The notes under the pieces were generated by a model that searched no databases, had not been told where the DNA came from, and was given only the letters and a program-made list of their open reading frames with translations. 49,465 nt of DNA from Candidatus Adlerbacteria bacterium (GTDB taxonomy: Bacteria; Patescibacteriota; Minisyncoccia; Phycocordibacterales; SBAW01). Position 1 is the stretch's first letter, and every line of letters starts with the position of its first letter. Below are positions 4,751 to 45,938 of this stretch, one piece after another. The stretch is from contig CAIUOD010000004.1 of assembly GCA_903900775.1 (NCBI GenBank), positions 1 to 49,465 on the forward strand, read 5' to 3'. A program made the position numbers and the translations under genes.

Positions 4751-5305
4751 CTAACTCGCCTTAAAGATGACTCCTGTCGGCGTGACAAATTCAGCGGCGT
4801 CGGGCACCCAGGGGTGGCAATTCGAGGAAAATTGGGTGGTGTCGGTTACCGCGATGACCCCACCTTGCGGTTGCTTTACTATCGCACCGCTCGCGGTAAT
4901 AGCCGCCTTTACACCGCTCGTCTGGCCATTTACCCAGGTATATGAATAGCCGTTTGCGCGGATGATGTGGATAGTGGTGTCATTACCATGACTATCGGTC
5001 GAAACAAAGTTGAGTCGTGTCTTGCCGCCTGCGGCATAGACCGTGCCGCTCGTCTTGCTGTCGCCCGTACTAGTATCGACGGTGCAGGTATAGTTGCCGC
5101 CCTGGGTTGTGAGCGCGTGCAGAGTGGTCGCTTTTGCAGTAGTAGCTGTAGGCGCCCCGTTGGCGGTATTGGTTGAGCTCGCTACCGAGCCTGCCGTATT
5201 AGCCGTGGGCGAAGCACTCGGAGTAAACAGATACCATGCACCTGCTACCAATACCAAAACTACGAGCACGCCGATGATGATCTTTTCTCTTTGCGACATA
5301 GTCAT
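4751..5305 (-). CDS. Hypothetical membrane-anchored/secreted protein
   Basis: ORF 4751..5350. The likely start is MTMSQREKIIIGVLVVLVLVAGAWYLF (ATG at 5303-5305), giving one N-terminal TM and then a Thr/Ser/Gly-rich domain. No family recognised. Confidence 0.55.
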   Translation of the reverse strand: MTMSQREKIIIGVLVVLVLVAGAWYLFTPSASPTANTAGSVASSTNTANGAPTATTAKATTLHALTTQGGNYTCTVDTSTGDSKTSGTVYAAGGKTRLNFVSTDSHGNDTTIHIIRANGYSYTWVNGQTSGVKAAITASGAIVKQPQGGVIAVTDTTQFSSNCHPWVPDAAEFVTPTGVIFKAS

Positions 5306-5879: not shown

Positions 5880-6770
5880 TTATCTATCCCCAACCAGAGC
5901 TTTTATTCTGTCCGCGATTGGCGGATGCGTAGAAAAAAGTTTTGTGAGAAAGCTCGTGCTTGCGCGCGCGCCAAAGGGGTTTGAGATATAGAGGTGTGCG
6001 GTGGCATTGCTCGCGCCCCTCATCGGCAGCTGATATTGGCCGATTTTTTGGAGCGCCGAGGCGAGGCCCTCGGGATAGCGCGTGAGGAGTGCGCCCGAAG
6101 CATCAGCCAAAAATTCGCGCTTGCGCGAAATAGCAAGCTGGATGAGCGTCGCCAAAATAGGCGCGAGGATAATAAAGACGATGGCGATGGCGGCCATAAT
6201 CGGATTGCCGCGTTCATCGTTGTTGCCTCTGCCGAAAAATGAAGTGCGCAAGAAAATGTCAGCCACGAGCGTGACGATGCCCACCAAAACCACCGCCACG
6301 GTCGAGACGACCATGTCGCGATTGCCGATGTGCGAGAGCTCGTGCGCGATAACGCCCTGGAGCTCGTTGCTATCCATCATACCGAGGAGGCCAGTCGTCA
6401 CCGCCAGCGCCGCGTGGCTTGCATTCCTCCCGGTGGCGAACGCGTTGGGCTGTGGATCGTTTATGATATACACTCTCGGCTTCGGGAGCCCTGCCGTTAT
6501 TGAGAGATTCTCAACAATGCGATTGAGCGCAATATATTGCGGCCCATCGGCCGGCGTCGCGCGTGCCATCGCGATGACCAGTTTGTCGGAGAACCAGTAG
6601 CTCCCGATGTTCATGCCGATGGCAAGAATCACCGCAATAACTAAAATGCCCGGGTTGTTCAGATACCACGAGATAGCCCAGCCGACCGCTACGACGACCG
6701 CCAAAAAGACACTCATCAAGACCCAGGTCTTGGCGGTATTTTCAGTTTGATGGGTATAAAGAGTGGCCAT
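5880..6770 (-). CDS. htpX: Zinc metalloprotease HtpX (peptidase M48)
   Basis: 296 aa. HELSHIGNRD zinc motif, four TM segments, and the C-terminal STHPPIADRI motif typical of HtpX. Confidence 0.9.
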   Translation of the reverse strand: MATLYTHQTENTAKTWVLMSVFLAVVVAVGWAISWYLNNPGILVIAVILAIGMNIGSYWFSDKLVIAMARATPADGPQYIALNRIVENLSITAGLPKPRVYIINDPQPNAFATGRNASHAALAVTTGLLGMMDSNELQGVIAHELSHIGNRDMVVSTVAVVLVGIVTLVADIFLRTSFFGRGNNDERGNPIMAAIAIVFIILAPILATLIQLAISRKREFLADASGALLTRYPEGLASALQKIGQYQLPMRGASNATAHLYISNPFGARASTSFLTKLFSTHPPIADRIKALVGDR

Positions 6771-6780
6771 AATGTATTGA

Positions 6781-7260
6781 TTATTTTGCGCGCGATTTCA
6801 GTATAGTATCGGCTGTGCGGATTTCTTCAAGCGCATTGCCGACGAGATCATACTTCTCGGCCTCTTCAAGCGTGACCCAAGCGTATTCTGAAACTTCGAT
6901 GCCGTCCGGCACTACCTCGCCGCCAACATACGGGGCAAAGAAGCTTAAAACCAAAACCGGCGTGCCATTGGGTTGGATAAAAGCGATGTCGCAGAGATAT
7001 TCGGGCTTCCCTATCTCAAGCCCGACTTCTTCCCGAACCTCGCGCCTGAGTGCTCGCTCGAGCGCGCCCGCCCACTGGCCATCTACGCCCGATTTTTCAT
7101 TCAGATAATCGTCCACCGAAAGCCCGCCGCCCGGTGGGAGCCACCGGCCGGGGTGAATCCGCTTTTTGTCGCCGCGCTTGATGATGAGGAAGGTCCCATC
7201 AGGCCGATACACGAGCGCGGTTGCCGCGACGCGATGGAGCTCTTTATCTTTAATTTCCAT
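6781..7260 (-). CDS. NUDIX hydrolase
   Basis: 159 aa. Nudix box GGGLSVDDYLNEKSG...ALRREVREEVGLEI (GX5EX7REUXEEXGU pattern). Confidence 0.8.
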   Translation of the reverse strand: MEIKDKELHRVAATALVYRPDGTFLIIKRGDKKRIHPGRWLPPGGGLSVDDYLNEKSGVDGQWAGALERALRREVREEVGLEIGKPEYLCDIAFIQPNGTPVLVLSFFAPYVGGEVVPDGIEVSEYAWVTLEEAEKYDLVGNALEEIRTADTILKSRAK

Positions 7261-7868: not shown

Positions 7869-9921
<2,053 letters not shown>

Positions 9922-9960
9922 TTGAAATAATCCTTATATAACCTGCTAAATCGTTGGCAG

Positions 9961-9988
9961 ATTATACGTTAATTTGCTCGTGTGTGAA
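9961..9988 (-). promoter_or_regulatory. Putative groES-groEL promoter
   Basis: On the minus strand, TTCACA (plus 9983-9988), a 16-nt spacer and TATAAT (plus 9961-9966). It lies ~40 nt upstream of the groES ATG. A small palindrome, CTGCCAA-CGAT-TTAGCAG, sits in the leader. Confidence 0.45.
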
Positions 9989-10022
9989 CTTGACTAACTT
10001 AAAACAATAGTTTATTGTAGTT
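9984..10022 (+). promoter_or_regulatory. Promoter/operator module, copy 1 (TTGACT-17-TATTGT with embedded ACAATA-N3-TATTGT palindrome)
   Basis: The 39-nt string gtgaacttgactaacttaaaacaatagtttattgtagtt is identical to 10858-10896. The -35 is at 9990-9995 and the -10 at 10013-10018. Confidence 0.6.
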
Positions 10023-10081
10023 CCAGCGTAAAAATTGGCTCTTTGACCATGTGCAAAGAGCCCTCATCAGGAGGTGATGCT

Positions 10082-10360
10082 ATGCGTAAGTTTTGGCGTT
10101 TGTGGTTTTCAGCGTGTACTGCAGGCCTTTCTGTTTCCGTGGTTTTCGTGCTGTTCGTCTTGGTGGGAAAATGGGATATCAACGCTATCGCAGTTGTTTC
10201 CATCACAATGGCACTGGTTGGTGGGAGCATAGTAAGCTTCCGCCAAAAGAGAGAAGGACCCCAAGTCCCCATCGAGGAGACGATAGAGAGGAACTGGCGG
10301 GTGGCTTCCTTCGGAATTCCTTGGCTGGTCATGCGTTTACTCAAACGCAAGCCATCCTGA
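10082..10360 (+). CDS. Small membrane protein (2 predicted TM), hypothetical
   Basis: ORF 10043..10360. AGGAGG lies 7 nt before the ATG at 10082 (MRKFWRLWFSACTAGLSVSVVFVLFVLVGKW...). A terminator follows. Local GC is lower. Confidence 0.55.
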   Translation: MRKFWRLWFSACTAGLSVSVVFVLFVLVGKWDINAIAVVSITMALVGGSIVSFRQKREGPQVPIEETIERNWRVASFGIPWLVMRLLKRKPS

Positions 10361-10395
10361 CCGTCCTTAGTTCTGCACTTGATTCTTGTGCGAAT

Positions 10396-10428
10396 CCCCG
10401 GACACTGCGTCCGGGGGTATCGTTTTTT
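10396..10428 (+). terminator. Rho-independent terminator
   Basis: Stem ccccgga/tccgggg (10396-10416) followed by tatcgtttttt. Confidence 0.7.
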
Positions 10429-10487
10429 ATATTTGACAACCTCTTTGCTTGGTAGTTTCATGGTTTGGGCAACTGGAGGATGTGCCA

Positions 10488-10811
10488 ATGAAGGAAGTTG
10501 AACTTCGGGTCTTCGCGTCCATTCTTTCCTCCTACTGGAATGGGAAGGATCTCGAAATCCGAACCAATACTGAACGAACGGCTCGCGTGGCAGTGGGAGA
10601 TGTTCTTATCATCAATCACACATTAAAGCGACGGGTCAAAGCTATCCGGTGGTACCGGGATTTTGAGAAAGCTCTCGCCGTTGAAAAACCGAGGAGAATT
10701 TTCCCCGGTTACGGCTGGAACAGCGATTCAATCCTGAAAGCTCTTCGCACTATTTACACTCCCGGAGCTGAAAACCGAGGCGTCCTCGTATTCGAGCTCG
10801 AGGATGTTTGA
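10488..10811 (+). CDS. ASCH-domain-like protein
   Basis: ORF 10449..10811. GGAGGA lies 7 nt before the ATG at 10488. MKEVELRVFASILSSYWNGKDLEIRTN...VGDVLII...VKAIRWYRDFEKALAVEKPRRIFPGYGWNSDSILKALRTIYTPGAENRGVLVFELEDV matches the ASCH layout as I remember it: G-K-x-x-E-x-R, GD, Y-x-x-F-E, PG, Y, GV-x-x-F-E-L. Confidence 0.5.
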   Translation: MKEVELRVFASILSSYWNGKDLEIRTNTERTARVAVGDVLIINHTLKRRVKAIRWYRDFEKALAVEKPRRIFPGYGWNSDSILKALRTIYTPGAENRGVLVFELEDV

Positions 10812-13281: not shown

Positions 13282-15168
13282 ATGGACCAAGATAAAAAAC
13301 CAAGTAAGAGGCCAGCTGCCGCAGGCCGAGGTCGCCCCCTTGGGCGCACGGGTGCTCCTAGAGCGCGCCGCGGGGTCGGCCGCGCCGGCAGCCCCAAGCC
13401 GTATCAGCCACACCCGCCGCGCCCTGATATTATGGCGAGCGCTCTGCGCGAGCAAGGCCCTAACGGCAACGACGAGAAACCCATCCCGCCGCTCGAGCTG
13501 GGCAATATCCGCATTATCCCTTTGGGTGGTGTCGAAGAAATCGGCCGCAACATGACCATGGTCGAGTTTGGCGACGACATCGTCGTCATCGACTGCGGCT
13601 TCCAATTTAAAGAGGACGACACGCCGGGCATCGACTACATCCTTCCCAACACTAAATATCTCGAGGATCGCGTTTCAAAAATCCGCGGCCTCTTCATCAC
13701 CCACGGCCACCTCGACCATATCGGCGCCGTCCCCTACCTCATCGACCGCATCGGCTATCCGCCGGTCTACACGCGTGGGCTCACCGCCGTGATGATCCGC
13801 AAGCGTCAGGAAGAATTCCCTCACCTGAAGCCACTGGATATTTTCGAAGTCGAAAAAGAAGACACTATAAAGGCCGGCAATTTGCGCGTGCGCTTTTTCT
13901 CGGTCTCCCACACTATCCCCGATTCGATGGGTGTCATCATCGAGACCCCGTATGGCATGGTGGTCTTTACGGGCGACTTGCGCCTCGACCACACCGACGG
14001 CGTTCCGTCCGAAAAAGAAGAAAAGGAGTTTGCTTTTTTCAAAGATAAAAAAGTGCTCTTTCTCGGATCGGACTCGACCAACGCGGATAAGCCGGGCTTC
14101 TCGCTCCCCGAGCGCCTCGTGCAAAAAAATCTCGATGACATCATCACCAACACCAAAAATCGCCTTATCATCGGGACTTTTTCCTCACAGCTTGAGCGCA
14201 TCATGCGCATGCTCGAGTGTGCCGAGCGCGTGGGGCGCAAGGTGCTCGTCGAGGGCCGCAGCATGAAGGTCAACATCGAGATAGTGAAGCAGTTGGGCAT
14301 GCTCAAAGTGGATGAAAAGACGTTTATCGACGCGGCCCAGCTCGACCATCTGCCCGACAGTAAAGTGATGATTCTCGCGACCGGGGCCCAAGGCGACGAG
14401 TTCGCGGCGCTGATGCGTATCGCGATGAAGACGCACAAATACGTGAAGATTAAAAAAGGCGACACGGTGGTGCTCTCTTCATCGGTGGTGCCGGGCAACG
14501 AGCGCGCCGTCCAAAAACTTAAAGATAACCTCTCGCGCCAGGGCGCGCAGATTATCGACCGGCAAATTATGGACATCCATGCCTCGGGGCACGCTAACCG
14601 CGACGAGACCTTCTGGATCCATTCTAAAATAAATCCCAGATTCTTCATGCCCATGCATGGCTATCACTACATGTTGCGGGTGCACGCCGACATCGCCAAG
14701 GCCTGCGGCCGCGCCGAGGAGGATATCGTCATCCCCGATAACAGTGCCATCATCGAGATACGCGACGAGGGCACGAAGATTGTCCGGCTCAAAGAGATGG
14801 CACCCAACGGCCTGCGGCTCGTCGACGGCTTCTCCATCGGCGACATCCAAGAGGTGGTCATTCGCGACAGGACGGTGCTCGCCGCCGAAGGTATGTTCGT
14901 GATTATCGCCACGGTTAACCACAAGACCGGCCGCCTGCGCAAGAGCCCCGACATCATCTCGCGCGGCTTCGTCTACCTACGAGAAAATCAGGAATTGCTC
15001 CAGCAGACGCGCCTCATTGTGAAGAAAGCGATTGAGGATACGGCCAAAGGCCAGCAACCGGTCAACTTCGACTTTGTCAAAAATAATGTGACCGACGCCG
15101 TGGCGCGCTTCCTCTTCGAGAAAACCAACAAGCGTCCCATCGTCATCCCGGTGATCTTGGTGGTATAA
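13282..15168 (+). CDS. rnj: Ribonuclease J (metallo-beta-lactamase/beta-CASP)
   Basis: 628 aa. IRIIPLGGVEEIGRNMT, the HxHxDH motif ITHGHLDHIGAVPYL, and a beta-CASP region. About 75 aa of Arg/Pro-rich sequence precede the conserved core. An alternative start is MASAL at 13432. Confidence 0.9.
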   Translation: MDQDKKPSKRPAAAGRGRPLGRTGAPRARRGVGRAGSPKPYQPHPPRPDIMASALREQGPNGNDEKPIPPLELGNIRIIPLGGVEEIGRNMTMVEFGDDIVVIDCGFQFKEDDTPGIDYILPNTKYLEDRVSKIRGLFITHGHLDHIGAVPYLIDRIGYPPVYTRGLTAVMIRKRQEEFPHLKPLDIFEVEKEDTIKAGNLRVRFFSVSHTIPDSMGVIIETPYGMVVFTGDLRLDHTDGVPSEKEEKEFAFFKDKKVLFLGSDSTNADKPGFSLPERLVQKNLDDIITNTKNRLIIGTFSSQLERIMRMLECAERVGRKVLVEGRSMKVNIEIVKQLGMLKVDEKTFIDAAQLDHLPDSKVMILATGAQGDEFAALMRIAMKTHKYVKIKKGDTVVLSSSVVPGNERAVQKLKDNLSRQGAQIIDRQIMDIHASGHANRDETFWIHSKINPRFFMPMHGYHYMLRVHADIAKACGRAEEDIVIPDNSAIIEIRDEGTKIVRLKEMAPNGLRLVDGFSIGDIQEVVIRDRTVLAAEGMFVIIATVNHKTGRLRKSPDIISRGFVYLRENQELLQQTRLIVKKAIEDTAKGQQPVNFDFVKNNVTDAVARFLFEKTNKRPIVIPVILVV

Positions 15169-15214
15169 AATACTCTTATTTTAAGCCGTATTTACTTAAA
15201 AGCTCGACAAGGGC

Positions 15215-15346
15215 TTGACAATAAAACTGGTTGGTGTATACTACTATGTAGCATTCAAGGAGGGTGCTAGATATGGAGGTGTAGTTCTTCCAGCCGACAA
15301 GAATCAAAAGCACACAATAGGCCGCCTCACCCGCGGCCTTTTTTTT
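15215..15346 (+). ncRNA. Orphan promoter-to-terminator unit: candidate small RNA (~100 nt) or mini-ORF leader
   Basis: TTGACA (15215-15220), a 16-nt spacer and TATACT (15237-15242). The transcript carries AAGGAGGG followed by ATG GAG GTG TAG (15273-15284). The terminator hairpin aggccgc-ctcacc-gcggcct (15319-15338) is followed by T8. Confidence 0.4.
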
Positions 15347-15356
15347 GCCCAAATTT

Positions 15357-16199
15357 TCAATCTAAAACAGAAAATTTTTTATTGCGGAATGTGATTAATT
15401 TTTCTTTTTGTAATTTTACAAGCTCGTGTTTTATTTCTTTCTGTTCCTGCGAAATTGTTTTTGAAAGATGTTCCAATGTTTTAGGAGATTTGAGAAGCTC
15501 GCGCAGGATTGCGCCGCGCAGTTGGCGTGATGAGCCCTCAAATTTGGATTGCTTGATGTAGTGTTTACTTTTTGTATTGAGTTTAATCCCCTGCTTTTTT
15601 AGATGCGCGCCATAATCCATGAGCGCTGCATAAAAATCACGCGGCGGCATGTTGGATTTTTTAAGCGCCTCTGCAACCCGCGGCAAAATCTCTTTATCTG
15701 AAACCTGCTTTTTATGTGCGAAACAAAAGTGAATAAAAACCGTGCGTATATTGGTCTCTATAAAAATCTCGGGCACGTTGTAAGCAAAAGCGGCCACTGC
15801 TCGCGCGGTATAGGGCCCAACACCGGGGAGTTTTTCTAATTCTTCGGCTTTTTTCGGGAATATGCCGCCGAAATCGCGCGCTATTATTTTAGCTGCTTCG
15901 TGCAAATACTTGGCGCGGCGATTATAGCCGAGCCCGCTCCACGCCTTAAGAACTTTTGAGAGCGGTACTCGCGCCAGCGTTTGAGCATCGGGAAACTCCT
16001 GCAAAAACTTTTTATAAAACGGTATCACGCGCTCAACCTGTGTCTGTTGGAGCATGATCTCCGAAACAAGTACTTTATATGGATCGAACGATTTACCCTG
16101 CGTAGCCTTGTGCGAAGTAGGGCGCCACGGCAAATGACTCCTGCCTTCTTTTTTGTAGAAAGCTGAAACTGCTTGCAATAGTTTTTGTACATTTGTCAT
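15357..16199 (-). CDS. HhH-GPD DNA glycosylase, MutY-like catalytic domain, without the Fe-S cluster loop
   Basis: 280 aa. LPWRPT...DPYKVLVSEIMLQQTQVERVIPFYKKFLQEFPDAQTLA...WSGLGYNRRAKYLHEAA...LPGVGPYTARAVAAFAYN. It has only one Cys (no CX6CX2CX5C) and no MutT-like C-terminal domain. The gene is markedly AT-rich. Confidence 0.75.
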   Translation of the reverse strand: MTNVQKLLQAVSAFYKKEGRSHLPWRPTSHKATQGKSFDPYKVLVSEIMLQQTQVERVIPFYKKFLQEFPDAQTLARVPLSKVLKAWSGLGYNRRAKYLHEAAKIIARDFGGIFPKKAEELEKLPGVGPYTARAVAAFAYNVPEIFIETNIRTVFIHFCFAHKKQVSDKEILPRVAEALKKSNMPPRDFYAALMDYGAHLKKQGIKLNTKSKHYIKQSKFEGSSRQLRGAILRELLKSPKTLEHLSKTISQEQKEIKHELVKLQKEKLITFRNKKFSVLD

Positions 16200-40552: not shown

Positions 40553-40648
40553 GTCCGTATAATTTTGGCGATCCCCTACCACAACACCATTTGAGAAAGA
40601 CGCCTGTTGGTGTAAAGTGTCTTGGTAATTGCAGTTGTGCAATACCAT

Positions 40649-40719
40649 TGCGGGATCGTCTAATGGTAGGACAACGGACTCTGAATCCGTTTATCTAGGT
40701 TCGAATCCTAGTCCCGCAG
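40649..40719 (+). tRNA. tRNA-Gln (anticodon CTG)
   Basis: TGCGGGATCGTCTAATGGTAGGACAACGGACTCTGAATCCGTTTATCTAGGTTCGAATCCTAGTCCCGCAG. Acceptor TGCGGGA/TCCCGCA; anticodon stem ACGGA/TCCGT with loop CTCTGAA; T arm CTAGG-TTCGAAT-CCTAG. Confidence 0.9.
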
Positions 40720-40784
40720 CCCAGTCATACTTAGTCATACTGTCGTTTTGCCCTGCGGTTGGTGTTATAGTATCGGCATAGATT

Positions 40785-41249
40785 ATGGATTTTTATATTG
40801 TTTTTGCCGGAATTGTAGAAGTAGGATTCAGCACCAGGCTTTTTAATGCAATAAATACCGCTGGTTCCAGAGGAGCGACGAAGATTATTATCCTTCTCTC
40901 ATCCCTTGGAGGAAACATACAGGAGGGGTTCACGTTGGCCTCGACCATACAAAACTCGACCTTACCTATAGCTATTCACGCCAACAACAACATCGATTCA
41001 ATTGCAAACGTCATTTATATGTCCGCGAAAGTGAGGACTGCGGAATCGTATGCAAAATTCTATCTACACGGCGCTGCGACACCGGCCGCATCCTTCGATG
41101 AAAAAGGTTTGCGCGAACAAATGTTGTCCTTGAGAACCGAAAACGCCAGGATCGCCCAGTTTATTTCCGAAAATTCTGAGCTAAATTTCAAAAAGGTACA
41201 AGCAATGATGAAAGCAGGGACCACGATGACAGCTCAGCAGGCATTATAA
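40785..41249 (+). CDS. ClpP-like serine peptidase (S14-like fold), interrupted by an in-frame TAA
   Basis: 154 aa. KIIILLSSLGGNIQEGFTLASTIQ matches ClpP I-x-L-x-I-N-S-P-G-G-x-V-x-x-G. Other ClpP-like positions are IDSIANVIYMSAKVR and YLHGA. The frame continues past the TAA (41247-41249) as CGMVQEIIHKEIPATALKEEIVVIN* to 41327. Confidence 0.6.
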   Translation: MDFYIVFAGIVEVGFSTRLFNAINTAGSRGATKIIILLSSLGGNIQEGFTLASTIQNSTLPIAIHANNNIDSIANVIYMSAKVRTAESYAKFYLHGAATPAASFDEKGLREQMLSLRTENARIAQFISENSELNFKKVQAMMKAGTTMTAQQAL

Positions 41250-41331
41250 TGTGGCATGGTGCAAGAAATTATCCATAAAGAGATCCCCGCGACGGCACTC
41301 AAAGAAGAAATCGTTGTCATCAACTAAAAAT

Positions 41332-41556
41332 ATGAACACCGAACAAGCAAAAACGAAAATTGAAGAGACATTGCTAAATATGGGATGTACGGACATCTCG
41401 TTTCCGGTATTAGAAAATACCTCAATTGTGGTGGTATTCAACTGCCGCGAAATTACAAGCTTTGTTGCTGACATCTCTGGCTGGACCTACTCTGGAATAC
41501 ACCTGGATACTACCTATGGTCATCAATACGGAATTGACTTCAGATTGAAGGGTTAA
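41332..41556 (+). CDS. Hypothetical small protein (74 aa)
   Basis: ORF 41251..41556 trimmed to the ATG at 41332 (MNTEQAKTKIEETLLNMGCTDISF...). AT-rich like the ClpP-like gene. Confidence 0.4.
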   Translation: MNTEQAKTKIEETLLNMGCTDISFPVLENTSIVVVFNCREITSFVADISGWTYSGIHLDTTYGHQYGIDFRLKG

Positions 41557-41623
41557 AAAAACGCGCCACTGAGTCACACTGCCCTTCCTATACAATAGGC
41601 TTCAATTGGTGAAAATGGTGGTT

Positions 41624-41809
41624 ATGTCTCGCACCACCGCAAGGTTCACTGTATCCCTACCGCCTGAAATGGCTGCGGAGGTAGAACGGATTATGGAAAT
41701 AGAGCATCGGACGCGCTCGGAGCTCGTCCGTGAGGCGCTGCGGCAATACTTTCGTGCTCAAGTGATTGAGACATCAGTACCACCCAGTAATTCCACCGCC
41801 CAGGAATAG
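41624..41809 (+). CDS. Ribbon-helix-helix (CopG/Arc/MetJ-type) protein, copy 1
   Basis: ORF 41606..41809. The start at 41624 is chosen by alignment to copy 2. MSRTTARFTVSLPPEMAAEVERIMEIEHRTRSELVREALRQYF is a classic RHH beta-strand plus two helices. Confidence 0.75.
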   Translation: MSRTTARFTVSLPPEMAAEVERIMEIEHRTRSELVREALRQYFRAQVIETSVPPSNSTAQE

Positions 41810-41834
41810 TTAATCTTATCGATACAAAAGAAGC

Positions 41835-41865
41835 GACCCGTTCCGCAGAGTTTGCGGAACGGGTC
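41835..41865. terminator. Bidirectional terminator hairpin between convergent genes
   Basis: 13-bp stem gacccgttccgca/tgcggaacgggtc with loop gagtt. Confidence 0.6.
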
Positions 41866-41885
41866 TGGCCTAATAGGCCGAAGTT

Positions 41886-42554
41886 TCAGCTGGCAGAAAG
41901 ACACTCGACCGTCTTAATGACTGGGCGAACTGCCAAAAAGCGCGGATCATTGAGCATGTCACCCCACTGCCTGATGAAAACCCATCGCTCGCGTTTCCCC
42001 CCGTTACCTGCGGAGAGACATGGGACGTTTCGGTAGACCTTGAGATCTCCCAAGACTAAAAGGGAGCCGAGACCGTGGATTTCATACTCGCGTTGCTCCT
42101 CGGGATACTTCGCCCCGTAGGCTAACAAGTGTTCAATCTTGCCCGGCACCCATGGATTCGCTGTATCGGCGCCGGCAATGCCGTCGGCGGCATCGTCTGG
42201 GGAGATGTCGTTATCGAAGTGGAAGAGTCGCGTTGCGAAATCGCGTCGACCACTGCCTTCGAGAGGGAAATATTTTGGGCTAATCCCTTCTTCCACCCAA
42301 TCGTAGCCGCCGCGGTGGACCATCGTTCCGAGCGAACAGTTGTAATCGACGGTGATGTATTGGCGTTCTTTCGGAGCCATATCCATGAGTGTCTTGCGGA
42401 CGTCATCGCGCCTATCGAGACGGGCTGCCAGGTCGCACAGGTCGGCGAAGATGCCGCTTGCGAGAATCCTGTTCCATCTTTTCGGCGTCATTCTTTTCTC
42501 TCTGAAAAGCTTGAGTTGCAGTTCAAGCTGGCCAGAAGTGAGTGTCGTCTCCAT
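41886..42554 (-). CDS. Hypothetical protein (222 aa), no family recognised
   Basis: Clean ORF with globular composition (...YDWVEEGISPKYFPLEG...EHLLAYGAKYPEEQREYEIHGLGS...RFLAVRPV). It converges on RHH copy 1 and diverges from small ORF copy 1. Confidence 0.6.
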   Translation of the reverse strand: METTLTSGQLELQLKLFREKRMTPKRWNRILASGIFADLCDLAARLDRRDDVRKTLMDMAPKERQYITVDYNCSLGTMVHRGGYDWVEEGISPKYFPLEGSGRRDFATRLFHFDNDISPDDAADGIAGADTANPWVPGKIEHLLAYGAKYPEEQREYEIHGLGSLLVLGDLKVYRNVPCLSAGNGGKRERWVFIRQWGDMLNDPRFLAVRPVIKTVECLSAS

Positions 42555-42768
42555 CGAGAAACTTCCTTTTGGATGGCTTCCCCTTTCGGGTCGGCCTATG
42601 CCAGCGGGCTCCCTCGGGTTGAGGGTTTACCATGACAAAGAACTGATGCAGTTTTACTACATGTAAAGCCATTTTGTCAAACCGCTACTACAGAAACACG
42701 CATGGTGTGCTTTAAGTATTTCATATTGAGCTTTCTCGGCACATGAGTGTTTCTTATGACTCAGGGAA

Positions 42769-43061
42769 GCGTACGTTACTCTTACCTCTATGCAGGTCTC
42801 CGACGAGCGGCTCCAGGAGTTCCAGTGCATCTATAAGGAAGAGTATGGGGAGGAGATCAGTTTGCCCCAGGCACGGGAGATGGTTCAGCGTCTCCTGACC
42901 CTGTACACTATTCTCAAGCGCCCCCGGCCCGGCGACGGCGCACCGGCTTCTTCACGACGCTCTCTGGCTCAAAGTGAGCCCGAAGCGTCCTGATGTTGGC
43001 CACTATCCGATCCCACTCTTTCTGTGGTGTTTGGGTGCGAACTTCCTCCACGACTCCCAGC
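42769..43061. repeat. 293-bp duplicated module, copy 1
   Basis: Aligns without indels to 44078-44370 at a constant offset of 1309 nt. By eye, identity is ~80% in the first 130 nt and ~95% in the last 150 nt. Confidence 0.85.
42790..42993 (+). CDS. Small conserved hypothetical protein (67 aa), copy 1
   Basis: MQVSDERLQEFQCIYKEEYGEEISLPQAREMVQRLLTLYTIL.... Between the two copies, seven of the differing codons are synonymous changes (six at the third position, one ctg/ttg), which supports plus-strand coding. Confidence 0.5.
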   Translation: MQVSDERLQEFQCIYKEEYGEEISLPQAREMVQRLLTLYTILKRPRPGDGAPASSRRSLAQSEPEAS

Positions 43062-43145
43062 AGAGTATTACTTTGTGTTACTTGGTGCCCCATGGGCACA
43101 TTAGCGAGCCTTTTGTTCTCAAGTGTGGCTGGCAGAATAAGGCAC

Positions 43146-43322
43146 ATGGCACGGATTACCGTAACCTTTTGTGTGTCGCTGCCGCCCGATATGGCCGCGG
43201 AGATCGAGCGGGCTATGGAAATCGAGCATCGAACGCGCTCGGAGCTTATCCGTGAGGCTTTGCGACAATATTTCCGACTCACCCTGACGAATTTTAGTAC
43301 TCCAACATCTGTAGAAAAATGA
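43146..43322 (+). CDS. Ribbon-helix-helix (CopG-type) protein, copy 2
   Basis: Lies inside ORF 42993..43322, from the ATG at 43146. MARITVTFCVSLPPDMAAEIERAMEIEHRTRSELIREALRQYF is about 70% identical to copy 1 across the RHH core. Confidence 0.75.
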   Translation: MARITVTFCVSLPPDMAAEIERAMEIEHRTRSELIREALRQYFRLTLTNFSTPTSVEK

Positions 43323-43351
43323 AAAGGCTCCGCGACTTGCGCGGAGCCTTT
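43323..43351. terminator. Bidirectional terminator hairpin
   Basis: aaaggctccgcg-acttg-cgcggagccttt, between RHH copy 2 and the convergent 194-aa gene. Confidence 0.65.
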
Positions 43352-43371
43352 CGGACCGATAAGTGTGTCGG

Positions 43372-43956
43372 TCAGTCGTCGGTGCCGAATCCCGGTTCGT
43401 CCCACACACCAAAGACGATGAGCTGAACGTCCATCGCGGTCACCATGATGAAAGGGTCCGGATTCGGGTCGGCGTAGTCGCTGACGAAGAACAACGCCCG
43501 GTCGCCGAATTGGTCCTGGATTCTCTTGACCTGGCGCAGGATATGGATTGGAACCGCTCGTGCATACGGCCGGTACGGAAACTCGTCGCGGTAGCTGCCA
43601 TGTCCACGAGACTGGTTCGCGGTCTTGCTTTCGTTAGACGCCCGGCCCGACCAGACCCAGCCCTGCGGCTTGTCTCGCTCACGCAGCGGCCGCCAGATCC
43701 AGACCTTGCCGGCCTTTTCGGCTTGAGAGGCCATGTACTGGTCGACCTCTCTATAGTTGTAGACGGGGATACGGTTCTCGTTGAGGAACCGCAACAGCTT
43801 CTCCTCGAGAAGTTGCGCGGGCTGGAAGCCCAACTCCTTCGCGAGCTGCTCGTACACCCCAAGCGGTTCGTTCCCGACGACCGCCAGACGCGGGGTTGGT
43901 CGCAGGATTGCTGGCGCCACCGAAGCGGTTGCCACTACCACTTTTCTTCCGAACAT
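43372..43956 (-). CDS. Hypothetical protein (194 aa), no family recognised
   Basis: Clean ORF (...LLEEKLLRFLNENRIPVYNYREVDQYM...ALFFVSDYADPNPDPFIMVTAMDVQLIVFGVWDEPGF). It converges on RHH copy 2 and diverges from small ORF copy 2. Confidence 0.6.
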   Translation of the reverse strand: MFGRKVVVATASVAPAILRPTPRLAVVGNEPLGVYEQLAKELGFQPAQLLEEKLLRFLNENRIPVYNYREVDQYMASQAEKAGKVWIWRPLRERDKPQGWVWSGRASNESKTANQSRGHGSYRDEFPYRPYARAVPIHILRQVKRIQDQFGDRALFFVSDYADPNPDPFIMVTAMDVQLIVFGVWDEPGFGTDD

Positions 43957-44077
43957 GTTCGACCCCTCCTTGCGTGGCAGAAAATTCCACCAAGCTTCTG
44001 GTGGTTAGAGTAACACACTTGTATTGAAGTGCAATAACTTGGAATAGTTCGCCTAGTCATATCGTTCTGTTTAGTTT

Positions 44078-44370
44078 GCGGTACGTTATCCCACCCATAT
44101 GCAGGTCTCCGACAAGCGGCTCCGGGAACTCCAGCGCATCTACAAGGAGGAGTATGGAGAGGAGACCAGTTTGGCAAAAGCACGGGAGATGGCACAGCGT
44201 CTCCTGACCTTGTACACTATTCTCATGTACCCCCGGCCCGGCGGCGGCGCACCGGCTTCTTCACGACGCTCTCCGGCTCAAAGCGAGCCCGAAGCATCCT
44301 GACGTTGGCCACTATCCGATCCCACTCTTTCTGTGGTGTTTGGGTGCGAACTTCCTCCAGGACTCCCAGC
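44078..44370. repeat. 293-bp duplicated module, copy 2
   Basis: See copy 1. Confidence 0.85.
44099..44302 (+). CDS. Small conserved hypothetical protein (67 aa), copy 2
   Basis: MQVSDKRLRELQRIYKEEYGEETSLAKAREMAQRLLTLYTIL.... Confidence 0.5.
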   Translation: MQVSDKRLRELQRIYKEEYGEETSLAKAREMAQRLLTLYTILMYPRPGGGAPASSRRSPAQSEPEAS

Positions 44371-44423
44371 CAGGTATGAAAAAGCCCCGCGAGAAGCGAA
44401 GCTTCTTCACGAGGCGTAGTAAG

Positions 44424-44711
44424 TTATCGAACTCGTGCACCCTCAGGCAGGAGGGGACGTACTTCCATCGGTGCTTCGTACATGAGTTCTGCATCCATTT
44501 TGAGAACTTCCGAAAGGTGATGCAGACCCTTCAGATAACAACGCAACTCCTCGACGCCGATCGGCGAATAGGTAAGCTTGGGATAGAACGGCGTGTCTTC
44601 GTTCACAACGCCCCCATAGAAGTCGACCTGCGTGCAGAGATCTACGGTGACGTACCGACCAGGCTTGAGGCTAGGGCGGTGGTAGGGCTCCGAAATTTTT
44701 ACAACGATCAT
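44424..44711 (-). CDS. Hypothetical protein (95 aa); the frame continues past the TAA stop
   Basis: ORF 44424..44816 trimmed to the ATG at 44709-44711, which is preceded by AAGGAG (MIVVKISEPYHRPSLKPGRYVTVDL...). After the TAA at 44424-44426, the same frame stays open for 66 more codons to a TGA at 44223-44225. Confidence 0.45.
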   Translation of the reverse strand: MIVVKISEPYHRPSLKPGRYVTVDLCTQVDFYGGVVNEDTPFYPKLTYSPIGVEELRCYLKGLHHLSEVLKMDAELMYEAPMEVRPLLPEGARVR

Positions 44712-44969
44712 TTTTTCTGCTCCTTGGCATCGGGGAATTCCGACAACAAGGACTCCACACCGCTTGCTCCTTTCGGAGGGGATAAGGGTGGAAATCGTAC
44801 TTCCTTCCTTTTGCACTCTGATTACCCAAACGAGTGAGGAGGTGGCCGAATTGCCGTTTCGGATTCAGTATTTCTCAGCACTCGACTACCCTTAATTGTA
44901 TGCCATGTTTAAATAAAAGTCAATAGTGCATATCCCGTCTATAAATATGGATTTTACGATGAAGCTCCC

Positions 44970-45938
44970 TTACTCCCCCACACAGGTACGGCGGTCGGGT
45001 TGGAGAACAATGGGGATTTCGGTGAGAGAAGCGACACCTTGGGGCGTGAAGCCGACCGAGAGCAGGAGGCCGTGGTCGACCGCGCTTGAAAAATATTGAT
45101 CAAAGATAAGGTTGCCGAGCGAATAATAAATCGGCACGCCCTGATAATTTTCGCTCTGCTCGACGACATGCGGATGCGAGCCAACCACCAATATCGCGCC
45201 CGCCTCGACAAATTTATGCGCGAGCAAAACTATCCGCGCGGGTGCGCTCTCGGCATATTCGTCGCCCCAGTGCGCGAAGACGACCGGCACAAACCCTCTC
45301 GATTTTTCTTGCGCGATTTGGGCGAGCGTTGTTGAGCCCGTGGCCTCGCTCGGGCTGGGGTCGAACTCGTTGTAGCCGATAAGCGCGAGCTGAACGCCGT
45401 TAATAGCTTCTTCGGCCACGGTGTGCCCCATGGGCTCGCCCGCCACGGCGGGCTCGCCAAAGTATCGCTCCCCCGCCGCCTTGAGATACGCTTCGGTCGA
45501 AATAATACCCTCCTCGCCAAAATTATAGATATGATTATTGCCGAGGCTGACCAGCCCCATGTGATGCGCCGCCAAGAGCGCGGCGGTTTGCGGCGCGAAG
45601 GTAAAAATATAATTAGCGGGGCTGTCGGGAATCGAAGCGAGGCTTATTGAAGGGCTCTCGGTTATCGGCCCTTCGAGATTGGCCACCACCAAGTCGGCAC
45701 TTTTGAGCGTCTCATCGAGGCACGAAAAAATATAGTCGCCGCCGTGCGCGCTCATGGCGGCGCGCACCGATCGATCAAACATCATGTCGCCGCCAAAAAG
45801 CACGCGAGCTTGGGGTTGGACGTGCACGGTGCTCGGTTTATCGACAAACACCGCGAGTCTCTCCTTTTCTGGAGTGGTTAAAATCGGATAGAGCAACCCG
45901 AGCGCGACCAGCGCCCCGGCAAAAAGCCACTTTTGCAT
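44970..45938 (-). CDS. capA: CapA-family (PGA_cap) metallophosphatase-like protein
   Basis: 322 aa. VANLEGPITES, LGNNHIYNFGEEG, VVFAHWGDEY, VGSHPHVVE, YSLGNLIFDQ. Confidence 0.8.
   Translation of the reverse strand: MQKWLFAGALVALGLLYPILTTPEKERLAVFVDKPSTVHVQPQARVLFGGDMMFDRSVRAAMSAHGGDYIFSCLDETLKSADLVVANLEGPITESPSISLASIPDSPANYIFTFAPQTAALLAAHHMGLVSLGNNHIYNFGEEGIISTEAYLKAAGERYFGEPAVAGEPMGHTVAEEAINGVQLALIGYNEFDPSPSEATGSTTLAQIAQEKSRGFVPVVFAHWGDEYAESAPARIVLLAHKFVEAGAILVVGSHPHVVEQSENYQGVPIYYSLGNLIFDQYFSSAVDHGLLLSVGFTPQGVASLTEIPIVLQPDRRTCVGE

What the first reader, a model, noticed from the sequence alone, without database searches (positions are those of the whole stretch)
40720..44950. tRNA-Gln-adjacent accessory block made of repeating [RHH >][< unknown gene][small ORF >] units, with no recognisable recombinase
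Housekeeping content stops directly after tRNA-Gln. The block first has an AT-rich ClpP-like gene and a 74-aa ORF. It then has two rounds of the same architecture. In each round, an RHH gene converges through a perfect bidirectional hairpin on an unrecognisable 194-222-aa gene, and that gene is divergently paired with a 67-aa conserved ORF. The rounds are RHH1 41624-41809 / 41886-42554 / 42790-42993, and RHH2 43146-43322 / 43372-43956 / 44099-44302. A further 95-aa gene converges on the last small ORF. The RHH proteins have no same-strand toxin partner, so this is not a standard type II TA layout. The two large proteins do not look homologous to each other. The tRNA location, composition shift, paralogy and in-frame stops fit an integrated element or a hotspot that collects variable modules, for example defence or addiction-type modules whose effector differs while the small regulators are conserved.
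Basis: partly seen in the sequence, partly recalled or inferred. Interest (0 to 1): 0.7.

Follow-up and report, generated by a model that had tools for sequence, protein, structure and literature searches.

The report
Strain-variable gene islet beside tRNA-Gln
Next to a tRNA-Gln gene in an uncultured Patescibacteria (CPR) chromosome lies a 4.2-kb patch of mobile-element and phage-type genes; repeated small regulator genes let whole gene units be gained, lost or swapped between strains, making it an ordinary variable islet rather than a new toxin or defence system.

Summary
The repeating layout is real. It has two RHH (ribbon-helix-helix) paralogs, two 67-aa paralogs inside a 285-nt repeat called D1 here (89% identical), two perfect 13-bp hairpins, and no recombinase anywhere in the window.

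The "unknown" genes can now be placed:
- The 222-aa protein belongs to a Patescibacteria family that is the target of diversity-generating retroelements (DGRs). In all three homolog loci examined, a variable/template repeat pair differs almost only at template adenines. The window itself has no template repeat and no reverse transcriptase.
- The 194-aa protein belongs to a family found across CPR genomes and also in phage replication modules.
- The 95-aa ORF is a complete gene.
- The first 45 residues of the 67-aa ORF match small ORFs that sit directly upstream of large serine recombinases in other mobile elements.

Metagenome contigs from the same population show one unit precisely deleted by a crossover inside D1. 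They also show a third RHH unit placed after either D1 copy, a breakpoint inside the small ORF, and two alternative tRNA-Gln 3' halves followed by unrelated DNA.

My reading is a variable accessory islet at a tRNA integration hotspot, reshuffled by homologous recombination between paralogous backbone genes. The toxin-antitoxin or defence reading is not supported for the genes in this window. Interest is moderate to low.

The parts
40648..40723 (+). tRNA-Gln(CTG). It is the left boundary and an integration/recombination hotspot.
   Evidence: ARAGORN and Rfam tRNA at 67 bits. Contigs L033 and L036 are identical to the window up to the T-arm, then carry a different 3' half and unrelated DNA.
40724..40741 (+). 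Tandem 10-bp motif GTCATACTTA/GTCATACT (GTnnYACTnn twice), starting 1 nt after the tRNA and about 45 nt upstream of the ClpP-like ATG. Candidate RHH operator.
   Evidence: Two exact matches in 49 kb against 0.02 expected. The pattern was defined after seeing the sites.
40785..41249 (+). AT-rich 154-aa ClpP-fold serine protease-like gene. Its best matches are phage head-maturation proteases, but below curated cut-offs.
   Evidence: Pfam CLP_protease 5.6e-9. PHROG head maturation protease 2.4e-9. NCBIfam Clp_rel_HeadMat 8e-13, 48.6 bits against a cut-off of 120. GC 0.441.
41332..41556 (+). 74-aa ORF with no family match. Whether it is coding is unproven.
   Evidence: No hit in Pfam, PHROGs, PADLOC or NCBIfam. 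GC 0.409.
41563..41580 (+). Second copy of the tandem 10-bp motif (1 mismatch), 44 nt upstream of RHH1.
41624..41809 (+). RHH1, a CopG-type ribbon-helix-helix DNA-binding protein.
   Evidence: Pfam RHH_1 1.2e-9. Compared with RHH2, 17 codons differ synonymously and 10 non-synonymously.
41835..41865 (-). Perfect 13-bp hairpin followed by a T-run on the minus strand. Terminator of the 222-aa gene.
41886..42554 (-). 222-aa homolog of a Patescibacteria DGR variable (target) protein family. Here it is an orphan, with no template repeat or reverse transcriptase in the window.
   Evidence: 94 homologs. Variable/template repeat pairs with adenine-only mismatches in L013, L026 and L025. bAvd and a reverse transcriptase lie next to L013 and L026. 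No template repeat in the window. AlphaFold2 model pLDDT 89. The top fold hits are C-type lectin domains but are not significant.
42784..43068 (+). D1a repeat, containing small ORF 67aa-1 (42790-42993).
   Evidence: The N-terminal 45-aa domain is homologous to small ORFs upstream of serine recombinases (hhalign probability 98.6%).
43065..43082 (+). Third copy of the tandem 10-bp motif, overlapping the end of D1a and 64 nt upstream of RHH2.
43146..43322 (+). RHH2, a paralog of RHH1.
   Evidence: Pfam RHH_1 9.2e-9. 69% identical to RHH1.
43322..43352 (-). Perfect 13-bp hairpin followed by a T-run on the minus strand. Terminator of the 194-aa gene.
43372..43956 (-). 194-aa member of an unannotated family found across CPR genomes and in phages. 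Conserved motifs: WIWRPLRExD, FFVSDYAVPxPDPFIMVTA, FGVWDEPGF.
   Evidence: 160 homologs and alignment A4. AlphaFold2 model pLDDT 90.8 with no structural match in the PDB or BFVD. Found in viral contigs next to a DNA ligase, and next to a DNA polymerase and its clamp.
44093..44377 (+). D1b repeat, containing small ORF 67aa-2 (44099-44302).
   Evidence: It shares a 56-nt identical run with D1a, which lies at 42995-43050 in D1a coordinates.
44424..44711 (-). 95-aa gene, complete, from a small unannotated family.
   Evidence: Homologs P0220 (105 aa), P0222 (106 aa) and P0221 (223 aa) align to residues 2-88.
44970..45938 (-). capA-like PGA_cap gene, the right flank where core gene content resumes.
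   Evidence: Pfam PGA_cap 2.8e-47.

Best explanation
The block is a strain-variable accessory islet at a tRNA-Gln integration hotspot in a Patescibacteria (CPR, Parcubacteria-like) chromosome. It is a mosaic of genes of mobile-element and phage type.

The repeated layout comes from two paralogous "backbone" genes. The first is a CopG-type RHH repressor, preceded by a tandem 10-bp operator-like motif. The second is a small ORF whose 45-aa domain belongs to a family that elsewhere sits directly upstream of large serine recombinases. The small ORF lies inside the 285-nt D1 repeat.

Between the backbone genes sit unrelated cargo genes, each with its own terminator:
- an orphan member of a DGR variable-protein family (222 aa);
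- a CPR/phage family of unknown function (194 aa);
- a 95-aa family.

Because the backbone segments are similar, ordinary homologous recombination between them deletes, duplicates and swaps whole units. No recombinase is encoded locally.

What is shown: the paralogy, the family assignments and the population variants. What is inferred: that the RHH proteins repress their own promoters through the motif, and that recombination is homologous rather than site-specific.
For: Architecture and paralogy.

The backbone genes are under purifying selection. RHH pairs show 17-18 synonymous against 10-13 non-synonymous codon differences. 67aa-1 against the L028 allele shows 11 against 7.

Small-ORF family:
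- Only 5 close homologs exist among 5.8 billion proteins.
- Distant relatives are supported by hhalign at probability 98.6%, E 7e-16.
- These relatives lie directly upstream of large serine recombinases in L012, L022 and L021. They also precede an AAA_13 ATPase gene in L019 and a primase-like gene in L020.

222-aa family: template/variable repeat mismatches fall on template adenines in 22 of 22, 18 of 18 and 25 of 26 positions. bAvd and a reverse transcriptase are adjacent in two of the loci. The family's C-terminus is hypervariable.

194-aa family: it stands alone in other CPR genomes. It also occurs in phage replication modules.

Recombination in nature:
- L005 is an exact D1a/D1b recombinant. 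Its crossover lies in the 56-nt identical run, it has no mismatches on either side, and it comes from a k=141 assembly.
- L006 and L029 place the same RHH3 unit after D1a and after D1b respectively.
- L028 has a breakpoint inside the small ORF.
- L033 and L036 replace the tRNA 3' half.

The motif lies upstream of all three RHH paralogs. No recombinase or reverse transcriptase is present in the window.
Against: - Only 877 nt of the block is compositionally foreign.
- No tRNA-derived direct repeat bounds the block.
- The variants come from short metagenome contigs. The scaffold-type contigs (L028, L029) could be chimeric across a 56-nt repeat.
- No function is demonstrated for the small ORF, the 194-aa protein or the 95-aa protein.
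- The motif was defined after seeing the sites, so its statistics are partly circular.
- The uneven divergence within D1 (5' half about 15%, 3' half about 4%) is not explained by simple duplication. It needs gene conversion or some constraint at the DNA level.
Confidence: 0.6

Rival explanations
1. The units are addiction or defence modules. Each opposite-strand cargo gene would be a toxin or effector, held in check by the convergent RHH and/or the divergent small ORF. This is an unusual type II toxin-antitoxin-like or defence layout.
For: - The RHH fold is the commonest antitoxin DNA-binding fold, and there are weak VapB/RelB-like matches.
- In a sister contig, small-ORF homologs flank a PemK toxin gene and a NYN nuclease gene.
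- One distant small-ORF relative precedes an AAA_13 ATPase gene.
- The locus varies between strains, as defence islands do.
Against: - No same-strand partner follows either RHH.
- PADLOC, Pfam and NCBIfam find no toxin or defence family in any cargo gene.
- The 222-aa gene belongs to a DGR ligand-binding-type family.
- The 194-aa and 222-aa families occur elsewhere without an RHH or small ORF.
- The unit carrying the 194-aa gene is cleanly absent in L005. That contig still has RHH1, so loss of a toxin gene is not informative either way.
Confidence: 0.12
2. The array was built by successive site-specific integrations of related small elements at one attachment site, or by cassette exchange. A serine recombinase encoded elsewhere would act at the D1 3' end or the tandem motif. 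The small ORFs would be the remnant first genes of recombinase operons.
For: - Small-ORF relatives directly precede large serine recombinases.
- Unit boundaries coincide with the D1 end and the motif. The same motif also starts 1 nt after the tRNA.
- The 3' 140 nt of D1 is far more conserved than the coding 5' half.
- tRNA-Gln clearly receives different insertions.
Against: - The junctions are not at one fixed nucleotide. D1a-to-RHH2 and D1-to-RHH3 stay similar through the motif and then drift apart gradually. D1b-to-95aa breaks inside the first motif unit.
- The L005 crossover lies anywhere within a 56-nt identical run, as expected for homologous recombination.
- The L028 breakpoint is inside the ORF.
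- No recombinase lies in the 49 kb.
- No att-like repeat of the tRNA is present.
Confidence: 0.13
3. The interval is ordinary conserved chromosome of this lineage, and its repeats have no consequence.
For: GC of 41601-44969 equals the genome average. The 222- and 194-aa families are widespread in CPR genomes.
Against: At least five structural variants occur in the same population. Homologs of the cargo genes lie in unrelated contexts elsewhere.
Confidence: 0.05

Closest known systems
tRNA-linked genomic islets and integration hotspots (degenerate integrative elements)
   Same: It lies directly 3' of a tRNA gene. Strains differ in their tRNA 3' halves and downstream DNA. Its gene content is of mobile-element and phage type, and it varies between strains.
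   Different: No integrase or recombinase is present. No flanking tRNA-derived direct repeat is present. Only the first 877 nt is compositionally deviant. Internal rearrangement runs through paralogous small genes rather than att sites.
DGR variable (target) proteins of Patescibacteria/CPR
   Same: The 222-aa protein is 44-51% identical to family members whose C-terminal variable region is paired with an adenine-mutated template repeat next to bAvd and a reverse transcriptase. It shares the conserved ...RFLAVR C-terminus.
   Different: The window has no template repeat, Avd or reverse transcriptase. The variable-region-equivalent stretch has indels relative to the family. The gene is identical in contigs from several samples, so there is no sign of ongoing diversification.
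CopG/Arc-type RHH repressors and RHH antitoxins of type II toxin-antitoxin systems
   Same: It has an RHH_1 domain, is small (58-61 aa), and has tandem or inverted 10-bp repeats upstream, as expected for self-repressed operators.
   Different: There is no co-transcribed toxin. The downstream neighbour is convergent and separated by a terminator.
Small ORFs preceding large serine recombinases in Bacteroidota-type integrative elements (unannotated family, no Pfam entry)
   Same: The 45-aa N-terminal domain is homologous (hhalign probability 98.6%), with the shared motif ExQxIYKEE.G..IS...A.
   Different: In the window no recombinase follows the small ORF. The CPR copies carry a low-complexity tail and are multi-copy within one locus.
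Integron cassette arrays
   Same: Both are tandem units in which variable cargo is separated by a recurring sequence, with gain and loss of units between strains.
   Different: There is no IntI and no attC-type imperfect palindromes are evident. The units contain their own regulator genes and terminators. The breakpoints fit homologous recombination.

Membership tests
Type II toxin-antitoxin system (RHH antitoxin type) | Antitoxin and toxin genes adjacent on the same strand and co-transcribed | tested here: not met
   RHH1 and RHH2 are each followed by a hairpin and a convergent gene.
Type II toxin-antitoxin system (RHH antitoxin type) | Partner belongs to a recognised toxin family | tested here: not met
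   No toxin family was found for the 222-, 194- or 95-aa proteins in Pfam, NCBIfam or PADLOC.
Type II toxin-antitoxin system (RHH antitoxin type) | Small DNA-binding antitoxin-type protein | tested here: met
   Pfam RHH_1 at 1e-9 and 9e-9. VapB-antitoxin matches are only sub-threshold.
Type II toxin-antitoxin system (RHH antitoxin type) | Toxicity of one partner neutralised by the other | not testable with these tools
   Needs expression experiments.
Diversity-generating retroelement (DGR) | Target protein of a family that is diversified by DGRs | tested here: met
   The 222-aa protein is 44-49% identical to P0007, P0014 and P0010. Their genes carry variable regions matched by adenine-mutated template repeats.
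Diversity-generating retroelement (DGR) | Template repeat matching the variable region with adenine-specific mismatches | tested here: not met
   An adenine-tolerant scan of the whole window found nothing. The best non-self match has 21 non-adenine mismatches in 90 nt.
Diversity-generating retroelement (DGR) | Reverse transcriptase, with or without Avd, nearby | tested here: not met
   No RVT_1 or bAvd in any large ORF of the 49-kb window. The rest of the genome could not be examined.
tRNA-integrated genomic island / integrative element | Insertion at the 3' end of a tRNA gene, with presence/absence polymorphism | tested here: met
   L033 and L036 share the tRNA 5' part, but have different 3' halves and different downstream DNA.
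tRNA-integrated genomic island / integrative element | Integrase or recombinase gene | tested here: not met
tRNA-integrated genomic island / integrative element | Flanking direct repeat derived from the tRNA 3' end (attL/attR) | tested here: not met
   No second copy was found, allowing up to 3 mismatches in 21 nt.
tRNA-integrated genomic island / integrative element | Deviant base composition | tested here: inconclusive
   Only 40724-41600 deviates (GC 0.432). The remainder is 0.543 against 0.549 for the window.
Known anti-phage defence systems (PADLOC) | At least one protein matching a defence-system model | tested here: not met
   Zero hits for nine proteins at E up to 1.
Integron | IntI tyrosine recombinase and attC sites bounding the cassettes | tested here: not met
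   No integrase was found. The recurring sequence is a 285-nt coding repeat, and RNA folding of its 3' part gives z-scores of -0.2 to -2.3. attC models were not run.
Prophage remnant | Recognisable phage structural or replication genes | tested here: inconclusive
   The ClpP-like gene best matches head-maturation proteases but falls below curated cut-offs. The 194-aa family occurs in viral contigs. There is no capsid, terminase or integrase.

The most novel reading that the evidence does not exclude
The locus could be a true cassette-exchange system of CPR bacteria. Units would be bounded by the tandem 10-bp motif and the D1 3' segment, and would be captured and shuffled by a serine recombinase acting from elsewhere in the genome. 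The small ORF would be its accessory factor, and the RHH proteins would silence each newly acquired cargo gene. That would be an integron-like mechanism for gene acquisition in organisms with very small genomes.
Probability: 0.1. Interest if true: 0.7.

Novelty: new member of a known kind. Interest (0 to 1): 0.35.

Why it matters
Patescibacteria have tiny genomes, and little is known about how they gain and lose accessory genes. This locus gives a concrete picture at population level. It shows a tRNA hotspot where small paralogous regulator genes act as portable stretches of homology for swapping units, including an orphan DGR-type variable protein and a phage-linked gene.

It also gives a first genomic context for three unannotated families:
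- the 45-aa domain associated with serine recombinases;
- the 194-aa CPR/phage family;
- the 95-105-aa family.

It does not reveal a new toxin-antitoxin or defence mechanism.

Tried and rejected
1. **A minus-strand gene read through an in-frame TAA.** The idea was that the D1 3' half is the C-terminus of a gene formed by the 95-aa ORF plus a 66-aa tail. Rejected: homologs of the 95-aa ORF are 105-106 aa and end where it ends. The long minus-strand ORFs (163 aa in the window, 164 aa in L029) are antisense to RHH genes.
2. **A structured RNA in the D1 3' part.** Fold z-scores are -2.3, -0.2, -0.8 and -1.5, and Rfam finds only the tRNA.
3. **An attR copy of the tRNA 3' end.** None was found.
4. 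**A template repeat for the 222-aa gene.** None was found in the window.
5. **Fold identification.**
   - For the 222-aa model, the top hits are C-type lectin domains, but with E of 1 or more.
   - The 194-aa model has no match in the PDB or BFVD.
   - Profile searches of the PDB were empty.
6. **Scans for relatives.**
   - The genome-contig scan for the small ORF returned one distant Odoribacter locus.
   - The window's own species is not in that collection.
   - Viral scans for the 222-aa family, the small ORF and the RHH proteins were empty.
7. **The sister contigs with PemK and NYN, and the 48.4-kb contig.** No DNA was available.
8. **Repeats around the serine recombinases in L012, L022 and L021.** Nothing informative.
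9. **Literature on the samples and on CPR islands.** Nothing relevant.

Full report
**Observation**

All features are at the stated coordinates.
- tRNA-Gln(CTG) is at 40648-40723, or 40649-40719 by Rfam.
- It is followed by a ClpP-like ORF (40785-41249, Pfam CLP_protease 5.6e-9) and a 74-aa ORF.
- Two rounds of the same layout follow:
  - RHH1 41624-41809, the 222-aa gene 41886-42554 (minus strand), and the 67-aa ORF 42790-42993;
  - RHH2 43146-43322, the 194-aa gene 43372-43956 (minus strand), and the 67-aa ORF 44099-44302.
- A 95-aa gene on the minus strand (44424-44711) comes next, then capA (PGA_cap 2.8e-47).
- The RHH proteins are paralogs (69% identity, E 2e-22) and so are the small ORFs (82%, E 1e-31).
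- The small ORFs lie in a 285-nt direct repeat, D1, that is 89% identical between copies.
- The two hairpins have perfect 13-bp stems. Only the minus strand has a T-run, so they are terminators of the 222- and 194-aa genes.
- The 222- and 194-aa families are unrelated (hhalign probability 0.1%).
- Pfam finds no recombinase or reverse transcriptase in the block or in 30 further large ORFs of the window. Those ORFs look like an ordinary small-genome chromosome: GroEL, RNase J, LexA, sortase, CTP synthase, FtsE/FtsX.
- The composition shift is limited to 40724-41600 (GC 0.432, lower than any other 877-nt window). The RHH/cargo part has GC 0.543 against 0.549 overall.

**The 222-aa gene**

It has 94 homologs, and the named ones come from Candidatus Adlerbacteria, Kaiserbacteria and other Patescibacteria.
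- I examined the loci of three homologs. Each has a roughly 130-nt repeat of the gene's 3' end about 460 nt downstream.
- The mismatches between the two copies fall on adenines of the downstream copy in 22 of 22, 18 of 18 and 25 of 26 positions. This is the signature of DGR mutagenesis.
- Two of the loci carry bAvd and a reverse transcriptase next to the repeat.
- The family alignment has the expected hypervariable C-terminus ending in RFLAVR.
- The window copy has no template repeat anywhere in the 49 kb.
- Its variable-region-equivalent stretch has indels relative to the family.
- The gene is identical or nearly so in contigs from several samples.
- It is therefore an orphan, apparently non-diversifying member of a DGR target family.
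- The AlphaFold2 model is confident (pLDDT 89). Its best PDB matches are C-type lectin domains, but they are not significant (E of 1 or more).

**The 194-aa gene**

It has 160 homologs, again mostly from Patescibacteria, and strongly conserved motifs.
- A 63%-identical homolog (P0111) and a 71%-identical homolog (P0101) both stand alone among unrelated genes, with no RHH or small ORF nearby.
- Relatives occur in IMG/VR viral contigs. One lies next to an ATP-dependent DNA ligase. Another lies directly upstream of a DNA polymerase processivity factor and the DNA polymerase.
- The model is confident (pLDDT 90.8) but matches nothing in the PDB or BFVD.
- Its function remains unknown. The family is linked to phages.

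**The 95-aa gene**

The reading frame stays open after its TAA into the D1 repeat. However, homologs are 105-106 aa and end at the same point. It is therefore a complete gene and not a pseudogene.

**The small ORF**

Only five close homologs exist among 5.8 billion proteins.
- Two of them share only the first 45 residues, so the conserved domain is N-terminal.
- Codon comparisons show coding constraint: 11 synonymous against 7 non-synonymous differences between 67aa-1 and the L028 allele.
- Pattern scans found 55-58-aa ORFs with 33-40% identity over 42-45 residues.
- A profile-profile comparison supports homology (probability 98.6%, E 7e-16). The caveat is that these sequences were retrieved through a shared motif.
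- In three loci these ORFs sit directly upstream of large serine recombinases with Resolvase, Recombinase and Zn-ribbon domains.
- In two other loci they sit upstream of an AAA_13 ATPase gene or a primase-like gene.
- The family has no Pfam entry.
- In a sister contig for which no DNA is available, small-ORF homologs flank a PemK toxin gene, a 172-aa gene and a NYN nuclease gene.

**Population variation**

Contigs from the same metagenome series match the window at 99.6-100% identity but differ in arrangement.
- L005 (k=141 assembly) is identical to the window up to 43050. It then switches to the D1b type and continues without a mismatch into the 95-aa gene. The RHH2/194-aa/67aa-2 unit is therefore precisely absent.
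- The L005 crossover lies in the 56-nt run that is identical between the two D1 copies. A 56-nt repeat should not collapse at k=141, so this is probably a real variant.
- L006 (k=141) has D1a followed by a third RHH gene, RHH3. L029 has the 194-aa gene, D1b and the same RHH3.
- L028 has the 222-aa gene and a small ORF that switches to another allele inside the ORF.
- At the left edge, L033 and L036 (both k=141) are identical to the window up to the T-arm of tRNA-Gln.
- Beyond that point they carry different T-arm and acceptor 3' sequences, with a mismatch at acceptor pair 4-69. The window's acceptor stem pairs perfectly.
- Each then continues into unrelated DNA, and both are still predicted as tRNA-Gln. 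This is the classical footprint of elements that integrate into a tRNA gene and supply their own 3' half.
- The window has no second copy of the tRNA 3' end.

**A motif noticed on the way**

A tandem 10-bp unit, GTnnYACTnn repeated twice, occurs at four positions:
- 40724, which is 1 nt after the tRNA and about 45 nt upstream of the ClpP-like gene;
- 41563, which is 44 nt upstream of RHH1 (one mismatch);
- 43065, at the end of D1a and 64 nt upstream of RHH2;
- after D1 and upstream of RHH3 in L006 and L029, where it forms a perfect 8-bp inverted repeat.

Exact matches number 2 against 0.02 expected. With up to one mismatch there are 5 against 0.29 expected, and all five lie inside the block. 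The pattern was defined after seeing the sites, so these numbers are indicative only. The simplest reading is an operator for the RHH repressors.

**Interpretation**

The evidence fits a variable accessory islet at a tRNA integration hotspot. The ancestral unit is best written as small ORF, then operator, then RHH, then terminator, then a convergent cargo gene.

The backbone genes are conserved paralogs and the cargo genes are unrelated. The observed variants are what homologous recombination between the backbone segments would produce.

The junctions are not at one fixed nucleotide, which argues against site-specific cassette capture but does not exclude it. The toxin-antitoxin/defence reading fails its testable criteria for the genes present here. 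The PemK and NYN neighbours in the sister contig show that such cargo can occupy equivalent positions.

**What remains unexplained**
- The 3' 140 nt of D1 is much better conserved than the coding 5' half.
- The biochemical roles of the small ORF, the 194-aa protein and the 95-aa protein are unknown.

**Verdict**

The feature is a new example of a known kind of locus, and its interest is moderate to low.

Noticed in passing
L013 5490-5619 / 5966-6095; L026 4490-4618 / 4947-5075; L025 4550-4684 / 5010-5144: Three Patescibacteria loci carry complete or partial DGRs whose target is the family of the 222-aa protein. Mismatches between the variable and template repeats fall on template adenines in 22 of 22, 18 of 18 and 25 of 26 positions. 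L013 and L026 have bAvd and a reverse transcriptase adjacent. L025 has no reverse transcriptase within 4 kb.
   Followed up: yes
L033 976-1196 and L036 741-944 (window equivalent 40696-40723 onward): Two strains have a hybrid tRNA-Gln. The 5' part is identical to the window. The T-arm and acceptor 3' strand differ (TCTGGCAGC, giving a mismatch at acceptor pair 4-69), and the downstream DNA is unrelated and different in each. Other elements therefore appear to be integrated at this tRNA in those strains. L033 also contains an inverted T-arm-like sequence about 70 nt downstream.
   Followed up: partly
window 40724-40741, 41563-41580, 43065-43082, 41776-41793(-); L006 346-363; L029 1379-1396: Tandem 10-bp motif GTnnYACTnn, twice, upstream of all three RHH paralogs and immediately after the tRNA. 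In front of RHH3 it is a perfect 8-bp inverted repeat, TACTTAGT-cgt-ACTAAGTA. Probably an RHH operator.
   Followed up: partly
L040 4854-5498; L038 2756-3394; L039 3274-3981: Homologs of the 194-aa protein lie in IMG/VR viral contigs. In L040 the homolog is directly upstream of a DNA polymerase processivity factor and the DNA polymerase, near a DpdA-like queuine tRNA-ribosyltransferase gene. In L038 it is beside an ATP-dependent DNA ligase gene.
   Followed up: partly
L012 7121-7291(+) and 9289-9465(-); L022 5980-6150; L021 4035-4202; L019 378-545; L020 6001-6168: An unannotated family of 55-58-aa ORFs (motif ExQxIYKEE.G..IS) precedes large serine recombinases, an AAA_13 ATPase gene or a primase-like gene in mobile-element contexts. 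In L012 two copies in opposite orientation flank the recombinase gene.
   Followed up: partly
Sister contigs hzGEdCIS and vY9hDnhm (ENA ERZ1426730 and ERZ1426669; no DNA available): The gene order is a PemK toxin gene (127 aa, minus strand), a 59-aa small-ORF homolog, a 172-aa gene (minus strand), a NYN-domain gene (229 aa) and a 68-aa small-ORF homolog. A 268-nt stretch with no called gene downstream of PemK could hold an RHH gene.
   Followed up: no
L029 1686-1850: Downstream of RHH3 the contig ends inside an ORF whose strand is ambiguous. It could be a same-strand GTG-start ORF (DLTELKKEYVIGQELGIDAAYGRILAVIDFGNVDY) or the C-terminus of a convergent gene. Neither fragment matches Pfam. If it is on the same strand, RHH3 would have a classical toxin-antitoxin-like partner.
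   Followed up: partly
window 42920-43068 / 44229-44377: The 3' half of the D1 repeat (the low-complexity tail of the small ORF plus 75 nt beyond its stop) is about 4% diverged between the copies, against about 15% for the N-terminal coding half. RNA folding is not convincing (z-scores -0.2 to -2.3). The cause is unexplained: gene conversion or a constraint at the DNA level.
   Followed up: partly
window 15001-16000 and 9501-10500: Two other local GC dips (0.451 and 0.489) occur in the window, outside the finding. The first overlaps an HhH-GPD DNA glycosylase gene (15357-16199).
   Followed up: no
L025 3698-3826 / 7103-7231: A second 129-nt direct repeat (85% identical) flanks the DGR-target region in L025, near an rve transposase gene and a type I restriction-modification methylase gene.
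   Followed up: no
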